Shown: in pieces, positions 10,967 to 53,102 of the stretch
How the letters are laid out: each line of letters begins with the position of its first letter
Numbering within the stretch: position 1 is the stretch's first letter
Source of the DNA: Escherichia coli
GTDB lineage: Bacteria; Pseudomonadota; Gammaproteobacteria; Enterobacterales; Enterobacteriaceae
Length of the DNA stretch: 64,000 nt
Assembly: GCF_003334765.1 (NCBI RefSeq)
Contig: NZ_QOWT01000003.1
Strand: one strand, 5' to 3'
The notes under the pieces: generated by a model
Databases searched by the model: none
What the model was told of the DNA's origin: nothing
The model's input: only the letters and a program-made list of their open reading frames with translations
Translations under genes and position numbers: made by a program

Positions 10967-11698
10967 TCAGGCTGTTACCAAAGAAGTTGCAACCTGGCGC
11001 TCATCAGAAATAATGTGCGTTACCTCATCCAGATGCCCGATGCGGGCTTCCCCTGAACGATTAAATTTACTTTTATCAATCAATAACAACGATTGCGCGG
11101 CACGTTTTAATAGCATCGATTTGTAATCAGCGTTGATCGCATTGGAGTCCCACAGTGCGCCGCTGCTATCGATCCCTTCACAAGAAAAAATAAACAGATC
11201 GATTTCCAGCGATTTAAGTTGGGAAATCAGCGAGGGATTGACGTAACAGCCATATTTGCGCTCAAGTGTGCCGCCGGAACTGATCAGTTGAATGCGTTCG
11301 CGTTTACCGAGTTCATGGCAAATCGGATGGCTATTGGTGAAGACCTGAATGTTGATGTCAGGCAACTGGCGTGCCAGATACCAGCAAGTTGAACTGGCGT
11401 CTAAGGCTATCACCATCCCTTCTTCAATCCACGCGAGCGCCTCGCGCGCGATATCTGCTTTATGCGCATAATGGCTTTTCAGCCTGATGTGAAAGGGATC
11501 GCCACTGTCTTGATTTTGACGGTGGATATATTTAGCGCGTCCATGATTGCGCAGAATTTTACCCTGCGTCTGTAATTCATTGAGATCGCGACGAATGGTT
11601 TCTTTACTGACCTTTAGCTGTTCAGAGAGAGCTTCCGTGGTCAGGCTGGTATGGTTCAGCAGCAGGTCGACTATCGCTTGCTGGCGTGCCGCTTTCAT
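10967..11698 (-). CDS. fucR: DeoR-family activator of the L-fucose regulon
   Basis: ORF-track frame 10967..11707; the product MKAARQQAIVDLLLNHTSLTTEALSEQLKVSKETIRRDLNEL has a DeoR-type HTH; start taken as the ATG at 11698 (243 aa). Confidence 0.9.
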   Translation of the reverse strand: MKAARQQAIVDLLLNHTSLTTEALSEQLKVSKETIRRDLNELQTQGKILRNHGRAKYIHRQNQDSGDPFHIRLKSHYAHKADIAREALAWIEEGMVIALDASSTCWYLARQLPDINIQVFTNSHPICHELGKRERIQLISSGGTLERKYGCYVNPSLISQLKSLEIDLFIFSCEGIDSSGALWDSNAINADYKSMLLKRAAQSLLLIDKSKFNRSGEARIGHLDEVTHIISDERQVATSLVTA

Positions 11699-13706: not shown

Positions 13707-15482
13707 TTAACGCTTGTACAACGGACCGTAGTTCTGGCAAGCGCGGTAATCCTGGCCTTCAATATCCATGCCGTGCGCAGCCCAGGCAGAAGGACGATAC
13801 ACTTTGGTCTCTTCAACGTTGTGCATACATACCGGGATACGCAGCATGGAGGCGAGAGTGATAAAGTCTGCGCCAACGTGGCCGATGGTCAGAACCCCAT
13901 GGTTAGCGCCCCAGTTCGCCATTACCGAGTACACATCCGTAAACGGCCCTTTACCGGTGAGGCGCGGTGCAAACCAGGTGGTTGGCCAGGTTGAGTTGGT
14001 GCGTTTGTTGAGGATGTCATGCACATCCTTCGGCAATTCCACGCTCCAGCCTTCCGCGATTTGCAGTACCGGTCCCAGGCCTTTGATGATGTTGACACGA
14101 GTCATGGTGAACGGGACGCCGCCTTCGGTAAGGAAGCGGGAAGAGTAACCGCCGCCACGGAAGTATTCGTGGATCGCCGGGCACCATTCGGTAGCGGCGA
14201 GGCAAGCGTCAGCCTCTTGCTGAGAGATTTCCCAGTGTGGCTTCATCGTCGGGTTACCTTCGCTGTCGCGTTGTTTACAGGAACCGTCCAGCGCAGCAGA
14301 ACCGGAGTTGATCAAATGGATGATGCCGTGTTCTGCCAGTCCATCCAGTTTATGCCCCGTTACACGCTCAATTGCTTCTGGTGACCAGTAGGTACGCACA
14401 TCGGCAAATACCTGAGCGGTGCCGGTGAGCTGGTGACCCATTAGCATTGCCACGCCGTTAAGACTGTCGTTTTCGGTCGCCACGACAAAGGGTTCGCGCA
14501 CGCCATTCCAGTCAAATGAACTGTTGAGGATCGCTTCGGCGGTGTCACCATTGGGATATTGATCGGTCCAGTGACGTTGCCCCTGGAAGCCCGCAGCGAT
14601 GGCGTTGTAGCCAAGTGATTCTTCCACGCGACCAATATCGGCCAGTTTGCTGTTGCCTTGCATCATGTCGCGGATACACATCGCCATCAGTAAACTTTCG
14701 CGCAGAACTGCGCGGCTTTGCTCGGCATTACGTTGATACTGTTTGTTATTTTCATCTTCGCCATAGCGGAAGTTTTTATCAGCCCAGGCCAGTGCCATTT
14801 CCAATTCGGCTTCGTCGTAAATCTTCTGATCGATACGGCGACGCAGTTCGGTCATATCCACCGCCTGGACTTTCATTCCCAGCCAGGATTCAAAGAAGTT
14901 GTGATCAACAATGGAACCGGCGATACCCATCGAAACGCCGCCCAGCGACAGATAGCTTTTACCTTTCATGCTGGCGACGGCCAAACCGGCGCGGGCAAAG
15001 CGCAGCAGTTTTTCTTCAACATCGGCAGGAATCGATGTGTCATCGGCATCCTGAACGTCATGACCGTAAATGGAGAATGCTGGGATGCCTTTCTGGCTGT
15101 GAGCTGCCAGAGCCGCTGCCAGGTAAACAGCGCCGGGGCGTTCAGTGCCGTTAAAGCCCCAAATGGCCTTCGGGCGGGTTGGATCCATGTCGATGGTTTC
15201 ACTGCCATAGCACCAGCAAGGCGTTACCGTAATGGTGAGGCCTACATTCTGACTGCTGAATTTTTCTTCGCAAGCAGCGGCTTCAGCCATACCCGCGATA
15301 CAGGTATCGGAAATGACACACTCGACGGCAGCTCCGCAGGCATGGCGCAGTTTCTCGGTCAGCAGTGCGGCCGTAGCTTTCGCCATATTCATTGTTTGTT
15401 CTTCAAGCGACTCACGAACACCCATGCGACGACCGTCAATAACCGGGCGGATACCAATTTTCGGTAAGCTGATTTTTTTCAT
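13707..15482 (-). CDS. fucI: L-fucose isomerase
   Basis: 591-aa ORF starting [19 protein letters not shown]; matches FucI. Confidence 0.95.
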
Positions 15483-15514
15483 TACAGATTCCTCACTTTA
15501 TTCGGAAAATATGT

Positions 15515-16831
15515 TCAGTTAGTTGCCGTTTGAGAACGGAAACGGGCAAAGATAAAGATGACCGCGAAGCAGAGTGCGGGGATCAGTTCAGCAGTGGGGA
15601 TGTTGCCCGCCGCGTCACTGACAAAACCCATGACCGGAGTGACAATACCGCCGCCAATAATGGTCATAACGATGAAGGACGAACCATATTTGGTGTCCTG
15701 GCCGAGATTCTTAATGCCCAGCGAGAAGATTGTTGGGTACTGAATCGACATAAAGGCGCTGCATAAAGTCAGGGCTATTAAGCCCACATGACCGCCAGCG
15801 AAGGCTGAGATCAGGCACAGTGCCATAGCGATTAATGCGTAGGCGGCCAGGACTTTGTGTGGTGCGAAGCGACTGATGAGCCAGGTACCGGTGAAACGAC
15901 CAATAAAGAAGCACACCATGGTTCCGGTTAAATAGTTAGCGGCAAAGCCTGCAGTCATACCTGGAATTTCTTCTACAGCGTAGCGAATCAAATAGCTCCA
16001 GCAGGCCGTTTGTGCGCCGACATAGCAGAATTGCGCTAATACCGCCCAGCGCCAGTGGCGAATACGCGCCAGGCGAGAAAGCGATGCGGAGAACGATCCT
16101 TGTTTGGCGTCACTGTGATTATCACTCTGCAATGCCGGGAATTTCGTCAGCATGATCAGCAGGGCGACCAGTAACACGATAGCCACGATGATCATATAAG
16201 GTGTCTGTACCGATAATACCAGGCTGTGTTTATACGCACTCAATTGCTCTGGAGACATTTTATCGAGAACGTCTTGCGATTGATGTGGCACGTTAGACAA
16301 AATAAGACTTTGCCCAAAGACAACCGCGATAATTGCGCCAAACGAGTTAAATGTTTGCGCAAGATTTAAGCGGAAGTGACCACTACTTTCCGGCCCTAAT
16401 ACCGTAACAAAAGGGTTTGCGGCAGTTTCCAGACAACCTAATCCGGCTGCAATAATAAATAGGCCAACTAAAAATAAGGTGTAGTTCATTATTTCTGCGG
16501 CGGGCCAGAATAATGCAGCACCCAAGGCATATAAAAATAACCCGGTAATAATCCCTGCTTTATAACTGAGTTTTTTCATCAATATCCCAGCAGGGATTGG
16601 GATAATGAAATAACCAAAGTAAAAGGCCGATTGGATCAGGCCAGCCTGGAAATTTGTCAGCGTAAAAGCCTGCTGGAATTGAGGTAATAAAATGTCGTTA
16701 AGGTTATTGGCTACCGCCCAAAGAAAAAACAGTGAGCACAGCAGCGCGAATGGAATAATGTAACTTCTGCTTTGCCCTGCATCTTTATCTACCGCACGGT
16801 AACTCTGCGTTTGTATTGATGTGTTTCCCAT
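15515..16831 (-). CDS. fucP: L-fucose:H+ symporter (MFS)
   Basis: 438-aa polytopic membrane ORF matching FucP. Confidence 0.95.
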   Translation of the reverse strand: MGNTSIQTQSYRAVDKDAGQSRSYIIPFALLCSLFFLWAVANNLNDILLPQFQQAFTLTNFQAGLIQSAFYFGYFIIPIPAGILMKKLSYKAGIITGLFLYALGAALFWPAAEIMNYTLFLVGLFIIAAGLGCLETAANPFVTVLGPESSGHFRLNLAQTFNSFGAIIAVVFGQSLILSNVPHQSQDVLDKMSPEQLSAYKHSLVLSVQTPYMIIVAIVLLVALLIMLTKFPALQSDNHSDAKQGSFSASLSRLARIRHWRWAVLAQFCYVGAQTACWSYLIRYAVEEIPGMTAGFAANYLTGTMVCFFIGRFTGTWLISRFAPHKVLAAYALIAMALCLISAFAGGHVGLIALTLCSAFMSIQYPTIFSLGIKNLGQDTKYGSSFIVMTIIGGGIVTPVMGFVSDAAGNIPTAELIPALCFAVIFIFARFRSQTATN

Positions 16832-17377
16832 AGCATCCTCTTAGGTTCAGAAGCTTAAGCACGTAATCGGTTATGTTTTCAAAAGTGCAAAACCAGCGAG
16901 TTCGGGCTTCATATCAGTGAATATTTGCCTGTCTGAAATGAACTCATGGATTCATTTTCAAATAAAAAACGCTCTGTAATATGACGGCGGTCACACTTAT
17001 TAGCTAGAAGGTGACTTTATGTGACTACCATCACTTTAATAATCGAAATTTCATGCCCGTTTCAGAAAATAAATCATAAAAAACACAAATCAGATGACCG
17101 TATTAATTGTTTGTGCCGAAAACGGTCATTCCGGGCTTGGAGGAATAGAAAAATGACCGTTTTGATAAATATTTTTAAGAGCGGTCATTTTTAATGGGGT
17201 TATAAAAAGAGAACTTGCAGTTATTTACTGTGATTAGTTGAACCAGGTCACAAAATATAAGCTTGTGAATTTCTTTCTTGTTAATCAGGAAGAAGATGGT
17301 GGGTAATTAAACGGCTAATTCAATAGTGTGAAAGGAACAACATTATTGCCCTGTTTTGAATCAGAGAGAGGTAGCTA
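16832..17377. promoter_or_regulatory. Divergent fucPIKUR / fucAO control region
   Basis: 546-bp AT-rich gap between divergent operons; contains two tandem inverted repeats of the form atgaccg-N20/22-cggtcat at about 17094-17130 and 17153-17188 (see findings). Confidence 0.6.
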
Positions 17378-18025
17378 ATGGAACGAAATAAACTTGCTCG
17401 TCAGATTATTGACACTTGCCTGGAAATGACCCGCCTGGGACTGAACCAGGGGACAGCGGGGAACGTCAGTGTACGTTATCAGGATGGGATGCTGATTACG
17501 CCTACAGGCATTCCATATGAAAAACTGACGGAGTCGCATATTGTCTTTATTGATGGCAACGGTAAACATGAGGAAGGAAAGCTCCCCTCAAGCGAATGGC
17601 GTTTCCATATGGCAGCCTATCAAAGCAGACCGGATGCCAACGCGGTTGTTCACAATCATGCCGTTCATTGCACGGCAGTTTCCATTCTTAACCGATCGAT
17701 CCCCGCTATTCACTACATGATTGCGGCGGCTGGCGGTAATTCTATTCCTTGCGCGCCTTATGCGACCTTTGGAACACGCGAACTTTCTGAACATGTTGCG
17801 CTGGCTCTCAAAAATCGTAAGGCAACTTTGTTACAACATCATGGGCTTATCGCTTGTGAGGTGAATCTGGAAAAAGCGTTATGGCTGGCGCATGAAGTTG
17901 AAGTGCTGGCGCAACTTTACCTGACGACCCTGGCGATTACGGACCCGGTGCCAGTGCTGAGCGATGAAGAGATTGCCGTAGTGCTGGAGAAATTCAAAAC
18001 CTATGGGTTACGAATTGAAGAGTAA
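17378..18025 (+). CDS. fucA: L-fuculose-phosphate aldolase
   Basis: 215-aa ORF starting MERNKLARQIIDTCLEMTRLGLNQGTAGNVSVR; class II aldolase; matches FucA. Confidence 0.95.
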   Translation: MERNKLARQIIDTCLEMTRLGLNQGTAGNVSVRYQDGMLITPTGIPYEKLTESHIVFIDGNGKHEEGKLPSSEWRFHMAAYQSRPDANAVVHNHAVHCTAVSILNRSIPAIHYMIAAAGGNSIPCAPYATFGTRELSEHVALALKNRKATLLQHHGLIACEVNLEKALWLAHEVEVLAQLYLTTLAITDPVPVLSDEEIAVVLEKFKTYGLRIEE

Positions 18026-49196: not shown

Positions 49197-50474
49197 TTAC
49201 TTGCTGCTAGCCATTGCGGGGGCGCTATCAGCAGTACGAATTTTTTGGAACAGCAAAAAGGTAAAGACAATCACCATGCCAAGCGCCGCCATGCCCATCA
49301 GCCACATATTGCGGTAGGCTTCTGCAGCGGGCAGGGTGTCTTGCCAGTGGCCGATAATTGGGTAAACGAAGACATCCGGCAGGAATCCAATCACCGAACA
49401 AATACCTACCGTGGTGCCCATAATGTAAGACGGTGTTCTCGCTTCGCCAGGGCAGGCCCAGTACAGCCCGCGTGAGGCGTAACAGGTGAATCCCAGCAGT
49501 AAAATCAGGCCAATCCCCATCGCGACCGATTGCGGGTTAGAGTTCGTGACGAGCAGGGCAGTTAACGTCAGCAGGCCGAGTACGGAAAGGATTTGGATCA
49601 CGCGGGTAGGGGATTTCACTTTGCTGTAGGTGGTGATTATGCCGCCAAGTGGGCCGCACAGCGCGCGGAATATTTTGTTGATCACAATCCCCATGTAGCT
49701 CGCCGCCACCAGCGACATGCCATACATTTCGGTCAGATAGTTGGTGGAGTAACTCAGAATGGCGTAGATGGTGAAGACGCCAAAAATCACCATGCTGCAA
49801 TACCAGGTGGTGCTGATACGCAAAACGGCCAGGATGTCGCTAAGCTGGAATGACTGTTTTTCTTCGTTATTGGCACTGCGCAGGTTGTTGTTATCGCTAA
49901 CAAAAAACCAGCACAGAATCCCCAACAAGATGTAAACCACACTATAGATGATAATGACCGTTTTCAGGCTGGTGCTGTCATCCGGTGCAAAGCGAGAAAA
50001 GACCCACATGGTAAACACCGCCAGCGACATTACACCGACGCCGCGCAGCCCTTCCATCCAGCCCATAATTTTCCCTTGCTCGCTATGATCGCCAAGCAAC
50101 GATGCAGCTTTAATCGACACCGACCACAGCATTAAAATCGTCGTTATCGCAAAGGCGATCTGAATACAGAGCATTACCCACAGCGGTGGATACGTTGCCA
50201 TTAACAGACCCAGTAATCCGGTAATGATCATCGCGGAAGTAATCATTTTGCGGTGTGAAAATTTATCGGCAATAACGCCGCTGGGGGCATAAAGAATAAT
50301 GGCCGCAATACCAAAGGTACTCATTATTAAACCTATCTCGGTATTGCTGAATCCCATAAATTTCGCCATGGGAATTTGATAAATATAACGTAAATAAGCC
50401 AGGTCGAAACTAACGCCGCCGCTAAAACTAATTATCGCGAGGGTTATCCAACGGCGATATGAGTTGTGTTGCAT
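49197..50474 (-). CDS. yqcE: MFS transporter (substrate unknown)
   Basis: 425-aa polytopic membrane ORF; matches YqcE; co-oriented with ygcE. Confidence 0.85.
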   Translation of the reverse strand: MQHNSYRRWITLAIISFSGGVSFDLAYLRYIYQIPMAKFMGFSNTEIGLIMSTFGIAAIILYAPSGVIADKFSHRKMITSAMIITGLLGLLMATYPPLWVMLCIQIAFAITTILMLWSVSIKAASLLGDHSEQGKIMGWMEGLRGVGVMSLAVFTMWVFSRFAPDDSTSLKTVIIIYSVVYILLGILCWFFVSDNNNLRSANNEEKQSFQLSDILAVLRISTTWYCSMVIFGVFTIYAILSYSTNYLTEMYGMSLVAASYMGIVINKIFRALCGPLGGIITTYSKVKSPTRVIQILSVLGLLTLTALLVTNSNPQSVAMGIGLILLLGFTCYASRGLYWACPGEARTPSYIMGTTVGICSVIGFLPDVFVYPIIGHWQDTLPAAEAYRNMWLMGMAALGMVIVFTFLLFQKIRTADSAPAMASSK

Positions 50475-51647: not shown

Positions 51648-53102
51648 ATGTCTTTATCTCGCGCAGCGATTGTCGACCAGCTAAAGGAAATTGTTGGTGC
51701 AGATCGCGTAATTACCGATGAAACAGTATTAAAGAAAAACAGTATTGACCGTTTTCGTAAATTTCCGGATATTCATGGCATTTATACTTTGCCGATTCCG
51801 GCAGCGGTCGTAAAACTCGGTTCCACAGAGCAAGTATCCCGTGTGCTGAATTTTATGAATGCGCACAAAATTAACGGTGTGCCGCGTACCGGTGCTTCCG
51901 CCACCGAAGGTGGGCTGGAAACTGTTGTAGAAAACTCGGTGGTGCTCGACGGCTCCGCCATGAATCAAATCATTAATATTGATATTGAGAATATGCAGGC
52001 GACGGCGCAATGTGGTGTTCCGCTGGAAGTGCTGGAAAACGCGTTGCGTGAAAAAGGTTACACCACGGGGCATTCTCCGCAGTCAAAGCCGCTGGCGCAG
52101 ATGGGCGGCCTGGTAGCAACCCGAAGTATCGGGCAGTTCTCCACACTCTACGGCGCAATCGAAGATATGGTCGTTGGTCTGGAAGCAGTATTGGCTGATG
52201 GCACCGTCACACGCATTAAAAACGTGCCACGCCGCGCGGCTGGCCCGGACATTCGTCACATCATCATCGGCAACGAAGGTGCATTGTGCTATATCACTGA
52301 AGTAACAGTGAAAATCTTTAAATTCACCCCGGAAAACAACCTCTTCTACGGCTATATCCTGGAAGACATGAAAACCGGCTTCAACATCCTGCGTGAAATC
52401 ATGGTGGAAGGGTATCGTCCGTCAATCGCTCGTTTGTATGACGCTGAAGATGGCACCCAACACTTCACCCATTTTGCCGACGGAAAATGCGTGCTGATCT
52501 TTATGGCTGAAGGTAACCCTCGCATTGCGAAGGTGACGGGCGAAGGGATTGCGGAAATCGTTGCCCGCTACCCGCAATGCCAGCGCGTGGACAGCAAGCT
52601 GATCGAAACCTGGTTTAACAACCTGAACTGGGGACCGGATAAAGTGGCTGCCGAACGTGTGCAGATCCTCAAAACCGGCAACATGGGCTTTACCACCGAA
52701 GTATCCGGCTGCTGGAGCTGCATCCACGAAATCTACGAAAGCGTTATTAACCGTATTCGTACTGAGTTCCCGCACGCCGACGACATCACCATGCTGGGCG
52801 GTCATTCCTCTCATAGCTATCAGAACGGCACCAACATGTACTTCGTCTACGATTACAACGTCGTTGACTGTAAGCCGGAAGAGGAAATCGACAAGTACCA
52901 CAATCCGCTCAACAAGATCATCTGTGAAGAAACCATTCGCCTCGGCGGTTCGATGGTGCACCACCACGGTATCGGTAAACATCGCGTTCACTGGAGCAAA
53001 CTGGAACACGGCAGCGCGTGGGCGTTGCTGGAAGGGCTGAAAAAGCAGTTCGATCCTAATGGCATTATGAATACGGGTACTATCTATCCGATTGAAAAAT
53101 AA
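51648..53102 (+). CDS. ygcU: FAD-linked oxidoreductase (FAD-binding PCMH type)
   Basis: 484-aa ORF matching YgcU. Confidence 0.85.
   Translation: MSLSRAAIVDQLKEIVGADRVITDETVLKKNSIDRFRKFPDIHGIYTLPIPAAVVKLGSTEQVSRVLNFMNAHKINGVPRTGASATEGGLETVVENSVVLDGSAMNQIINIDIENMQATAQCGVPLEVLENALREKGYTTGHSPQSKPLAQMGGLVATRSIGQFSTLYGAIEDMVVGLEAVLADGTVTRIKNVPRRAAGPDIRHIIIGNEGALCYITEVTVKIFKFTPENNLFYGYILEDMKTGFNILREIMVEGYRPSIARLYDAEDGTQHFTHFADGKCVLIFMAEGNPRIAKVTGEGIAEIVARYPQCQRVDSKLIETWFNNLNWGPDKVAAERVQILKTGNMGFTTEVSGCWSCIHEIYESVINRIRTEFPHADDITMLGGHSSHSYQNGTNMYFVYDYNVVDCKPEEEIDKYHNPLNKIICEETIRLGGSMVHHHGIGKHRVHWSKLEHGSAWALLEGLKKQFDPNGIMNTGTIYPIEK

What the first reader, a model, noticed from the sequence alone, without database searches (positions are those of the whole stretch)
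17094..17188. Two tandem inverted repeats in the fuc divergent control region, candidate FucR operators
The fucPIKUR/fucAO intergenic region contains atgaccgt-N20-acggtcat and atgaccg-N22-cggtcat, about 59 bp apart. Paired palindromic half-sites with regular spacing are what one expects for a DeoR-family regulator such as FucR, which activates both divergent promoters. I cannot confirm from memory that these correspond to mapped FucR sites.
Basis: partly seen in the sequence, partly recalled or inferred. Interest (0 to 1): 0.4.

Follow-up and report, generated by a model that had tools for sequence, protein, structure and literature searches.

The report
Known FucR operators of fuc regulon
The two inverted repeats are real and are the binding sites of FucR, the fucose-regulon activator of E. 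coli K-12; two of the four half-sites were validated by mutagenesis in 2024, so the finding is correct but already known.

Summary
ATGACCG/CGGTCAT occurs four times in alternating orientation at 17094, 17123, 17153 and 17182. This gives two inverted repeats, ATGACCG-N22-CGGTCAT; shuffles of the window give none.

The window here is 100% identical to the E. coli K-12 MG1655 fucP/fucA intergenic region. The right arm of each repeat is exactly a published FucR site: OFucR2 (17116-17130) and OFucR3 (17175-17189). According to PMC11011485, the FucR motif behind these sites comes from a high-throughput in vitro binding assay. Mutating OFucR2 lowers fucose-induced PfucAO activity by about 30%; mutating OFucR3 lowers it more than 50-fold. 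CRP sites lie elsewhere.

My addition comes from 45 fucP-fucA intergenic regions, from Escherichia to Yersinia and Photorhabdus:
- The convergent half-site pair keeps a fixed 29-30 bp centre spacing in 80 of 80 pairs, while the distance between pairs varies from 11 to 46 bp.
- The two arms vary independently at core position 4, so the constraint is not base pairing.
- A third, degenerate pair lies at 17053-17088.
- The array sits at fixed distances from CRP sites OCrp1 (28.5 bp) and OCrp2 (about 59 bp).

This suggests a 36-bp inverted-repeat operator bound by a symmetric FucR oligomer. Published truncations, however, show the left arms are dispensable for PfucAO.

The parts
17094..17129 (.). 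Inverted-repeat operator 'pair 2': ATGACCG-N22-CGGTCAT (boxes A and B)
   Evidence: The 29-bp centre spacing is conserved in orthologous regions.
17094..17100 (-). Box A: FucR half-site core, CGGTCAT on the minus strand, facing fucP. It has not been tested on its own.
   Evidence: Invariant columns T17095, G17096 and C17098-G17100 in the 16-genome alignment. The published truncation V5 starts at 17101 and keeps full PfucAO activity.
17116..17130 (+). Box B = published OFucR2 (ccgaaaaCGGtCAtt); core CGGTCAT at 17123-17129
   Evidence: PMC11011485: mutating it lowers induced PfucAO activity by about 30%. Invariant AAACGG.CA.
17153..17188 (.). Inverted-repeat operator 'pair 3': ATGACCG-N22-CGGTCAT (boxes C and D)
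   Evidence: Conserved spacing.
17153..17159 (-). Box C: FucR half-site core facing fucP. Its reverse complement, ATCAAAACGGTCATT (17152-17166), is the only site in the fuc intergenic region that matches the full published 15-nt degenerate consensus; the window holds one other full match, at 51744-51758. It has not been tested on its own.
   Evidence: Truncation V6 starts at about 17167, so it lacks A, B and C, yet keeps about 70% of induced activity.
17175..17189 (+). Box D = published OFucR3 (ttaagagCGGtCAtt); core CGGTCAT at 17182-17188. This is the critical FucR site for PfucAO.
   Evidence: PMC11011485: mutating it lowers fucose induction more than 50-fold. It lies 58.5-59.5 bp from the OCrp2 centre in 32 of 32 genomes where D is recognisable.
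17053..17088 (.). Probable third, degenerate pair ('pair 1'). Box 0 is ATGCCCG (17053-17059), which fits the published CGG(G)CAT variant. Its partner position 0' is AACACAA (17082-17088), with an invariant CACA at 17084-17087.
   Evidence: Box 0 is a perfect ATGACCG in Salmonella, Klebsiella and Yersinia. 0' is a perfect CGGTCAT in Photorhabdus luminescens. Box 0 lies 28.5 bp from the OCrp1 centre in 33 genomes. That it binds FucR is an inference.
17020..17035 (.). CRP site OCrp1 (TGTGACTACCATCACT), on the fucPIK side
   Evidence: The sequence matches the CRP consensus. I assign it to the paper's OCrp1 from its position just to the fucA side of the IS5 target CTAG at 17004-17007.
17234..17255 (.). 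CRP site OCrp2 (ttagtTGAaccaggTCACAaaa). It is essential for PfucAO and is centred at -70.5 from the mapped transcription start.
   Evidence: PMC11011485. The TGA-N6-TCACA core is conserved.
17315..17315 (+). fucA transcription start (C, 63 nt upstream of the ATG), mapped by 5'RACE
   Evidence: PMC11011485, mapped onto the window.
10967..11698 (-). fucR gene: the DeoR-family activator that recognises the boxes
   Evidence: Annotation of MG1655. Pfam HTH_DeoR 1.3e-21 and DeoRC 2.5e-45.

Best explanation
The four ATGACCG/CGGTCAT heptamers are the recognition cores of FucR, the fuculose-1-phosphate-dependent DeoR-family activator. They lie in the region that controls the divergent fucPIKUR and fucAO operons of E. 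coli K-12.

Shown by others: FucR with its inducer acts through the right arms B (OFucR2) and D (OFucR3). Together with CRP at OCrp2 (-70.5), this switches on PfucAO.

Shown here by comparison of genomes: the half-sites are organised as 36-bp inverted repeats, ATGMCCG-N22-CGGKCAW. The 29-bp centre spacing is fixed across Enterobacterales. The spacer is AT-rich (16% G+C) and otherwise unconserved. The whole array, two clear pairs plus a degenerate third, keeps fixed distances to the flanking CRP sites OCrp1 and OCrp2.

Inferred: each inverted repeat is occupied by one two-fold-symmetric FucR oligomer, either a dimer with widely separated winged-helix domains or half of a tetramer. Each monomer would read CGGKCA in the major groove and the adjacent A-tract. 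The FucR array stabilises CRP at both outer sites and so co-activates both promoters. The fucP-facing arms (0, A, C) would serve mainly the fucPIKUR side or cooperative occupancy.
For: Identity of the locus: (100% identical to MG1655).

Match to published sites and their mutagenesis: (PMC11011485). 'Four known binding sites' (OR0-OR3): (PMC11894529).

Not chance.

Phylogenetic footprint: in a 16-genome alignment, every invariant column falls in the boxes, the CACA element or OCrp2.

Fixed pair spacing: 69 convergent pairs at 29 bp and 11 at 30 bp in 45 intergenic regions, none at any other distance below 63 bp. Divergent (B to C) distances range over 11-46 bp. Shuffles give 0.005 pairs.

Independent variation of position 4 in the two arms: 41 of 80 pairs complementary against 34 expected.

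Fixed distances: OCrp1 to box 0 is 28.5 bp, and D to OCrp2 is 58.5-59.5 bp, while OCrp2 to the fucA ATG varies from 90 to 188 bp.

FucR domain make-up.
Against: I could reach no footprint, EMSA or ChIP on this fragment. Direct binding rests on the in vitro binding assay as quoted by PMC11011485, plus the promoter mutagenesis.

The left arms have no demonstrated function. Truncation V5, which starts at 17101 and lacks box A, has full PfucAO activity. V6, which starts at about 17167 and keeps only box D, has about 70% of induced activity, the same loss as the OFucR2 point mutant. A lone half-site D therefore suffices for most activation at PfucAO, which argues against an obligatory pair.

A fucose biosensor paper fitted a Hill coefficient of 1 (PMC10046853). 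This is weak evidence against cooperative binding.

The 29-bp centre spacing is about 99 Å, which is long for a simple dimer. No solved structure of a homologue was found by sequence.

The genomes compared are related, so the counts are not independent events.
Confidence: 0.9

Rival explanations
1. The boxes are independent single-box FucR sites. Each 12-15 bp box (A-tract plus CGGKCAT) would be a self-sufficient site. Boxes B and D would serve PfucAO, and boxes 0, A and C would serve PfucPIKUR. The inverted-repeat geometry would have no role in binding. This is the implicit published view.
For: The published motif is a single asymmetric 15-mer. Truncation V6, which keeps only box D, retains about 70% of induced activity, and V5, which lacks A, is fully active. 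The 2025 paper assigns OR0 and OR1 to fucPIKR and OR2 and OR3 to fucAO.
Against: It does not explain why the convergent spacing is 29-30 bp in 80 of 80 pairs from Escherichia to Photorhabdus. The neighbouring B-to-C spacer, of similar length and composition, varies from 11 to 46 bp, and the intra-pair spacer sequence is itself unconserved.
Confidence: 0.3
2. The repeats act through nucleic-acid secondary structure, as a DNA cruciform or an RNA hairpin, rather than as protein-binding sites.
For: The 113-nt stretch folds better than its shuffles (z = -3.55).
Against: That z-score is an automatic consequence of four complementary 7-mers. The arms are only 7-8 nt long with 20-22 nt AT-rich loops. 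The stretch lies between the two divergent transcription starts, so the main promoters do not transcribe it (the fucP start is inferred). Core position 4 varies independently in the two arms (41 of 80 pairs complementary against 34 expected), so there is no compensatory change. There is no Rfam match and no terminator-like site.
Confidence: 0.02
3. The boxes are sites for another regulator, such as CRP or SrsR, and not for FucR.
For: The region is dense in CRP sites. OCrp0 (TATGACGGCGGTCACA) even contains GCGGTCA (D14).
Against: The boxes do not fit TGTGA-N6-TCACA. The four CRP sites are mapped elsewhere, and OCrp2 and OCrp3 are validated. The effect of mutating OFucR2 or OFucR3 appears only with fucose, not with glycerol, where CRP still acts. 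SrsR had no effect on fucAO.
Confidence: 0.03

Closest known systems
Published E. coli FucR sites OFucR2 and OFucR3 (Zhang et al. 2024, PMC11011485; motif from Baumgart et al. 2021 as quoted there), and 'OR0-OR3' (Zhou et al. 2025, PMC11894529)
   Same: Same DNA: OFucR2 = 17116-17130 and OFucR3 = 17175-17189, the right arms of the two repeats. Same regulator, same inducer and same promoters.
   Different: The papers treat the sites as single 15-mers. In the text I could read, they do not describe the left arms as partners, the fixed 22-nt spacer, the degenerate third pair, or conservation outside E. coli. I could not see their figures, so I cannot tell which boxes their putative OR0 and OR1 are. 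The candidates are box 0 plus A, or A plus C.
Operators of other E. coli DeoR-family regulators: DeoR (16-bp palindromes at three operators, with looping) and GlpR (tandem ~20-bp operators). This comparison is from general knowledge and was not tested here.
   Same: The protein family is the same (HTH_DeoR plus DeoRC). Several symmetric sites lie in one control region, and the effector is a sugar phosphate.
   Different: FucR is an activator that needs its inducer to act. Its half-sites are 29 bp apart centre to centre, separated by an unconserved AT-rich spacer, instead of forming a compact palindrome.
Divergent sugar-regulon control regions co-activated by CRP and a specific activator, such as malEp-malKp with MalT and CRP, or melAB with MelR and CRP. 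This comparison is from general knowledge.
   Same: There is an array of specific-activator sites between or next to CRP sites. The activator and CRP depend on each other. The distances between activator and CRP sites are fixed.
   Different: The activator family and site architecture differ. For fuc, no higher-order complex has been shown.

Membership tests
FucR (DeoR-family) operator of the fuc regulon | Matches the experimentally derived FucR motif, core CGG(T/G)CA(T/A) preceded by an A-rich tract | tested here: met
   All four boxes carry CGGTCAT. Box C matches the full 15-nt degenerate consensus. B and D are the published sites themselves.
FucR (DeoR-family) operator of the fuc regulon | Lies in the control region of FucR-dependent promoters | tested here: met
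   It lies between fucP (15515-16831, minus strand) and fucA (17378-18025, plus strand), and is identical to MG1655.
FucR (DeoR-family) operator of the fuc regulon | Mutating the site abolishes inducer- and FucR-dependent activation | not testable with these tools
   Published for B (about 30% loss) and D (more than 50-fold loss) at PfucAO (PMC11011485). Not published for A, C or box 0. Truncations lacking A, or lacking A, B and C, keep 100% and about 70% of PfucAO activity. I found no data for PfucPIK.
FucR (DeoR-family) operator of the fuc regulon | Direct, inducer-dependent binding of purified FucR (footprint or EMSA) | not testable with these tools
   Only the high-throughput in vitro binding assay of Baumgart et al. 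2021, as quoted in PMC11011485. The original paper is not held. The older fuc papers are not held either.
FucR (DeoR-family) operator of the fuc regulon | Conserved in orthologous fucP-fucA regions | tested here: met
   The boxes are the invariant islands in an otherwise diverged intergenic region. The same plan is found in 45 regions from about 20 genera. Co-occurrence with fucR in those genomes was not checked, because the loci do not reach it.
Symmetric operator bound as one unit by a FucR oligomer (a true inverted-repeat operator) | Fixed spacing between the two arms, independent of the spacer sequence | tested here: met
   29 bp in 69 pairs and 30 bp in 11, against 11-46 bp for the neighbouring inter-pair distance.
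Symmetric operator bound as one unit by a FucR oligomer (a true inverted-repeat operator) | Both arms are needed for binding or function | tested here: inconclusive
   Published truncations argue against this at PfucAO. The conserved geometry argues for it. No binding data exist.
CRP binding site | TGTGA-N6-TCACA symmetry | tested here: not met
   The boxes read ATGACCG/CGGTCAT. The CRP sites are separate, at 16980-16995, 17020-17035, 17234-17255 and 17324-17345.
Structured RNA or intrinsic terminator | Compensatory changes between the arms; a match to a known family; a stem followed by a T-run | tested here: not met

The most novel reading that the evidence does not exclude
The functional FucR operator is not the published 15-mer. 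It is a 36-bp wide-spaced inverted repeat, ATGMCCG-N22-CGGKCAW, bound by one symmetric FucR oligomer. Three such operators lie in tandem (17053-17088 degenerate, 17094-17129, 17153-17188), locked at fixed distances to CRP sites OCrp1 and OCrp2. Together they form one conserved nucleoprotein module that switches on both divergent promoters. In this reading, the untested fucP-facing arms (0, A, C) are required for fucPIKUR activation or for cooperative occupancy at physiological FucR levels.
Probability: 0.5. Interest if true: 0.35.

Novelty: already known. Interest (0 to 1): 0.18.

Why it matters
As a scan finding it is a correct rediscovery. It shows that a repeat read from raw sequence can land exactly on sites that took a high-throughput binding assay and promoter mutagenesis to establish.

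The small new element is comparative. The rigid 29-bp pair spacing, the degenerate third pair, and the fixed distances to the CRP sites give testable predictions. They bear on how a DeoR-type activator with widely spaced half-sites cooperates with CRP at a divergent promoter pair. They also suggest that the published single-site description of FucR operators is incomplete, especially on the fucPIKUR side, where the FucR sites are still only 'putative'.

Tried and rejected
RNA or DNA structure. The stretch folds with z = -3.55, but this is trivial for four complementary 7-mers. There is no covariation between the arms, no Rfam hit at E <= 1, and no terminator-like or sigma-70 consensus site in the intergenic region.

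Alternative pairing B-C. This is the 12-nt perfect inverted repeat in K-12 (I6). I rejected it as the conserved unit because its spacing varies from 11 to 46 bp between taxa.

Other copies of the heptamer in the window. Five copies lie at 14849-15794, inside fucI and fucP. They lack the A-tract and a partner at 29 bp. The three inside fucP (15558, 15630, 15788) were checked in the five ungapped fucP orthologues. None is conserved: the exact heptamer survives only at 15630 and in only one of the five. I treated these as coding-sequence coincidence. A perfect AAAACGGTCATT at 49952-49963 lies inside a 425-aa ORF with no proper partner and is probably chance.

A solved structure to judge the span of a FucR dimer: none was found by sequence.

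Literature. The older fuc papers (PMC2838058, PMC94201) and Baumgart et al. 2021 are not held. I therefore could not see the original binding data or any earlier site proposals. I also could not determine which boxes the 2025 paper calls OR0 and OR1. No later paper on FucR sites of fucPIK was found.

Full report
**1. What is in the sequence**

Window 16832-17377 is the 546-bp region between two divergent genes. One is a 438-aa ORF on the minus strand (15515-16831). The other is a 215-aa ORF on the plus strand (17378-18025). The region is 100% identical to the fucP-fucA intergenic region of E. coli K-12 MG1655, coordinates 2933689-2934234 reverse-complemented. It occurs at 95-100% identity in 5013 of 5426 complete E. 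coli genomes.

The heptamer ATGACCG and its complement CGGTCAT occur four times, in alternating orientation:
- box A: 17094-17100, ATGACCG on the plus strand
- box B: 17123-17129, CGGTCAT on the plus strand
- box C: 17153-17159, ATGACCG on the plus strand
- box D: 17182-17188, CGGTCAT on the plus strand

The box centres are 29, 30 and 29 bp apart.

The pattern ATGACCG-N15-30-CGGTCAT has 2 hits in the window against 0.00 in 100 shuffles. Four copies in 95 bp, at the density of the other 12 copies in the window, has a Poisson probability of about 4e-9.

From K-12 alone, however, the parse into two convergent repeats (A-B and C-D) is not unique. The longest perfect inverted repeat is the divergent B-C pair: AAAACGGTCATT, 21 nt, then AATGACCGTTTT (I6).

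**2. What is already known about it**

Zhang et al. 2024 (PMC11011485) took the FucR motif from the high-throughput in vitro binding assay of Baumgart et al. 2021. The consensus as quoted is G(A)C(T)C(G)A(C)A(G)A(TC)A(T)CGGT(G)CAT(A)T(CG). They located two sites:
- OFucR2 = ccgaaaaCGGtCAtt, which is window 17116-17130 and contains box B
- OFucR3 = ttaagagCGGtCAtt, which is window 17175-17189 and contains box D

In a PfucAO-lacZ fusion, mutating OFucR2 lowered fucose-induced activity by about 30%. Mutating OFucR3 lowered it more than 50-fold. Neither mutation mattered on glycerol.

The same paper mapped the fucA transcription start by 5'RACE to the C at -63 from the ATG, which is window 17315. 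It validated CRP site OCrp2 (ttagtTGAaccaggTCACAaaa = 17234-17255, centred at -70.5) as essential, and OCrp3 (17324-17345) as accessory.

Zhou et al. [quoted passage not shown] They say that 'all four known binding sites' lie on the fucA side of the IS5 insertion point. I place that insertion point at the CTAG at 17004-17007. I could not see the figures, so I do not know which boxes OR0 and OR1 are.

FucR itself (window 10967-11698, minus strand) has HTH_DeoR and DeoRC domains. The sites are mapped and the CRP sites are elsewhere. The finding is already known.

**3. What comparison with other genomes adds**

I fetched 80 loci encoding FucA relatives, one genome per species. Forty-six of them have a divergent fucP next to fucA.

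*Conservation of the boxes.* A 16-genome alignment of the central region covers Escherichia, Salmonella, Citrobacter, Klebsiella, Enterobacter, Kluyvera, Raoultella and others. It shows a clean phylogenetic footprint. Mean column identity is 61%. Every invariant column falls in box A (TG.CCG), box B (AAACGG.CA), box C (TG.CCG), box D (C.G.C), OCrp2 (TA…GA…TCACA.AA), or one further element, AAA..CACA at 17079-17087. Core position 4 is free to be T or G (A or C on the other strand), as in the published motif. Other Escherichia strains, including one other E. coli strain in the sample, have CGGGCAT at box B.

*Spacing.* I scored the relaxed core CGGNCA in 45 intergenic regions. Convergent pairs, an ATGNCCG-type box followed by a CGGNCA-type box, are 29 bp apart 69 times and 30 bp apart 11 times. 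They occur at no other distance below 63 bp. Mononucleotide shuffles give 0.005 such pairs. The divergent B-to-C distance takes more than ten values between 11 and 46 bp. The B-C spacer is about as long and as AT-rich as the intra-pair spacer, so it serves as an internal control for the indel rate.

*A third pair.* Box 0 (17053-17059, ATGCCCG) lies 41 bp to the fucP side of A, in the same orientation. It is a perfect ATGACCG in Salmonella, Klebsiella, Yersinia and others. Exactly 29 bp from it sits the invariant CACA element (0', 17082-17088). In Photorhabdus luminescens and its relatives this position is a perfect CGGTCAT.

*Fixed distances to the CRP sites.* The centre of OCrp1 is 28.5 bp from box 0 in 33 regions and 29.5 bp in 4. 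Box D is 58.5-59.5 bp from the centre of OCrp2 in all 32 regions where D is recognisable. The distance from OCrp2 to the fucA ATG, by contrast, ranges from 90 to 188 bp.

**4. Protein site or nucleic-acid structure?**

The 113-nt stretch folds better than its shuffles (z = -3.55). Four complementary heptamers guarantee that result. Core position 4 varies independently in the two arms of a pair: 41 of 80 pairs are complementary against 34 expected under independence. There is therefore no compensatory change. The arms are 7-8 nt long with 20-22 nt loops. The stretch lies between the two divergent transcription starts. There is no Rfam match and no terminator-like site. The constraint is on each half-site and on the spacing between them, which is the signature of a protein.

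**5. How it most likely works**

Shown by others: FucR with fuculose-1-phosphate, acting through boxes D and B, and CRP at OCrp2, together activate PfucAO. FucR is ineffective without OCrp2.

Shown here: the pair geometry and the fixed register with the CRP sites are conserved.

Inferred:
- One symmetric FucR oligomer occupies each 36-bp repeat. An inverted repeat is two-fold symmetric at any spacing, so helical phase is not a problem. The roughly 99 Å span, however, requires either widely separated winged-helix domains, a tetramer, or bending of the AT-rich spacer.
- The array helps CRP occupy OCrp1 and OCrp2, and so co-activates both promoters.
- The fucP-facing arms matter mostly on the fucPIKUR side.

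I put the identity as FucR sites at about 0.9 and the pair as the binding unit at about 0.5-0.6.

**6. Evidence against the pair model**

The published 5' truncations can be placed on the sequence from their primers. V5 starts at 17101, immediately after box A, and has full activity. V6 starts at about 17167, so it lacks A, B and C and keeps only D. It retains about 70% of induced activity, no worse than the OFucR2 point mutation alone. At PfucAO, in that reporter and with fucose-induced FucR levels, a lone right arm is therefore nearly sufficient.

A biosensor study fitted a Hill coefficient of 1. No structure of a homologue was found by sequence. The compared genomes are related, so the counts are not independent events. 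The contrast with the variable B-C spacer in the same genomes is nevertheless hard to explain by relatedness alone.

**7. Verdict**

Novelty: already known, since two of the four half-sites are validated and the motif is published. The comparative result is a modest refinement: a fixed 36-bp inverted-repeat unit, a degenerate third pair, and rigid register with the CRP sites. It is worth a footprint and spacer-mutant experiment, but it is not surprising to a specialist. Interest is 0.18.

Noticed in passing
window 17053-17088: There is a fifth FucR-type box, ATGCCCG at 17053-17059 (box 0). Exactly 29 bp from it lies a CACA element (17084-17087) preceded by an A-tract, invariant in the 16-genome alignment. 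In Photorhabdus luminescens and relatives this partner position is a perfect CGGTCAT. It looks like a third, half-degenerate operator pair next to CRP site OCrp1.
   Followed up: partly
window 16890-16898 (locus L082, E. coli strain EC25, NZ_CM169476.1): A human-gut E. coli isolate carries an IS1A element in the fucP leader: 777 extra bases including a 9-bp target duplication AAACCAGCG. It lies between the inferred fucP transcription start and the fucP ATG. This is a natural insertion in the same intergenic region where laboratory IS5 insertions switch fucAO on and fucPIK off. Its effect on expression is unknown.
   Followed up: partly
window 17263-17268 versus 17282-17287: [quoted passage not shown] In the K-12 sequence those coordinates read taatca. 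TTGTGA lies at -115 to -110, which is 36 bp from the proposed -10 aattaa (17305-17310). The consensus scan finds no sigma-70-like promoter anywhere in the intergenic region. The -35 assignment looks inconsistent; the promoter may have no usable -35 and depend on CRP at -70.5.
   Followed up: partly
window 14849-15794: Five more copies of ATGACCG/CGGTCAT cluster within about 950 bp inside the fucI and fucP coding sequences, out of 12 copies outside the control region in 64 kb. They lack the A-tract and a partner at 29 bp. The three inside fucP are not conserved in the five ungapped fucP orthologues checked. This is probably coincidence in coding sequence.
   Followed up: partly
window 49952-49963 (minus strand): A perfect copy of the 12-mer AAAACGGTCATT, identical to boxes B and C, lies inside a 425-aa ORF (49197-50474, minus strand). 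About 0.008 such copies are expected by chance in the window. At the partner position 29 bp away it has only CGGTGCA, which is not a match. This is probably chance, and I did not check whether it is conserved.
   Followed up: partly
loci L032-L038, L040, L042, L044-L045, L047, L049, L051-L052, L054-L064, L066-L068 and L074: Many Citrobacter, Atlantibacter, Buttiauxella, Enterobacter and other genomes encode a FucA relative of 81-87% identity that has no fucP next to it. This is a second fuculose-phosphate-aldolase-like gene in a different context. I did not examine whether FucR boxes precede it.
   Followed up: no
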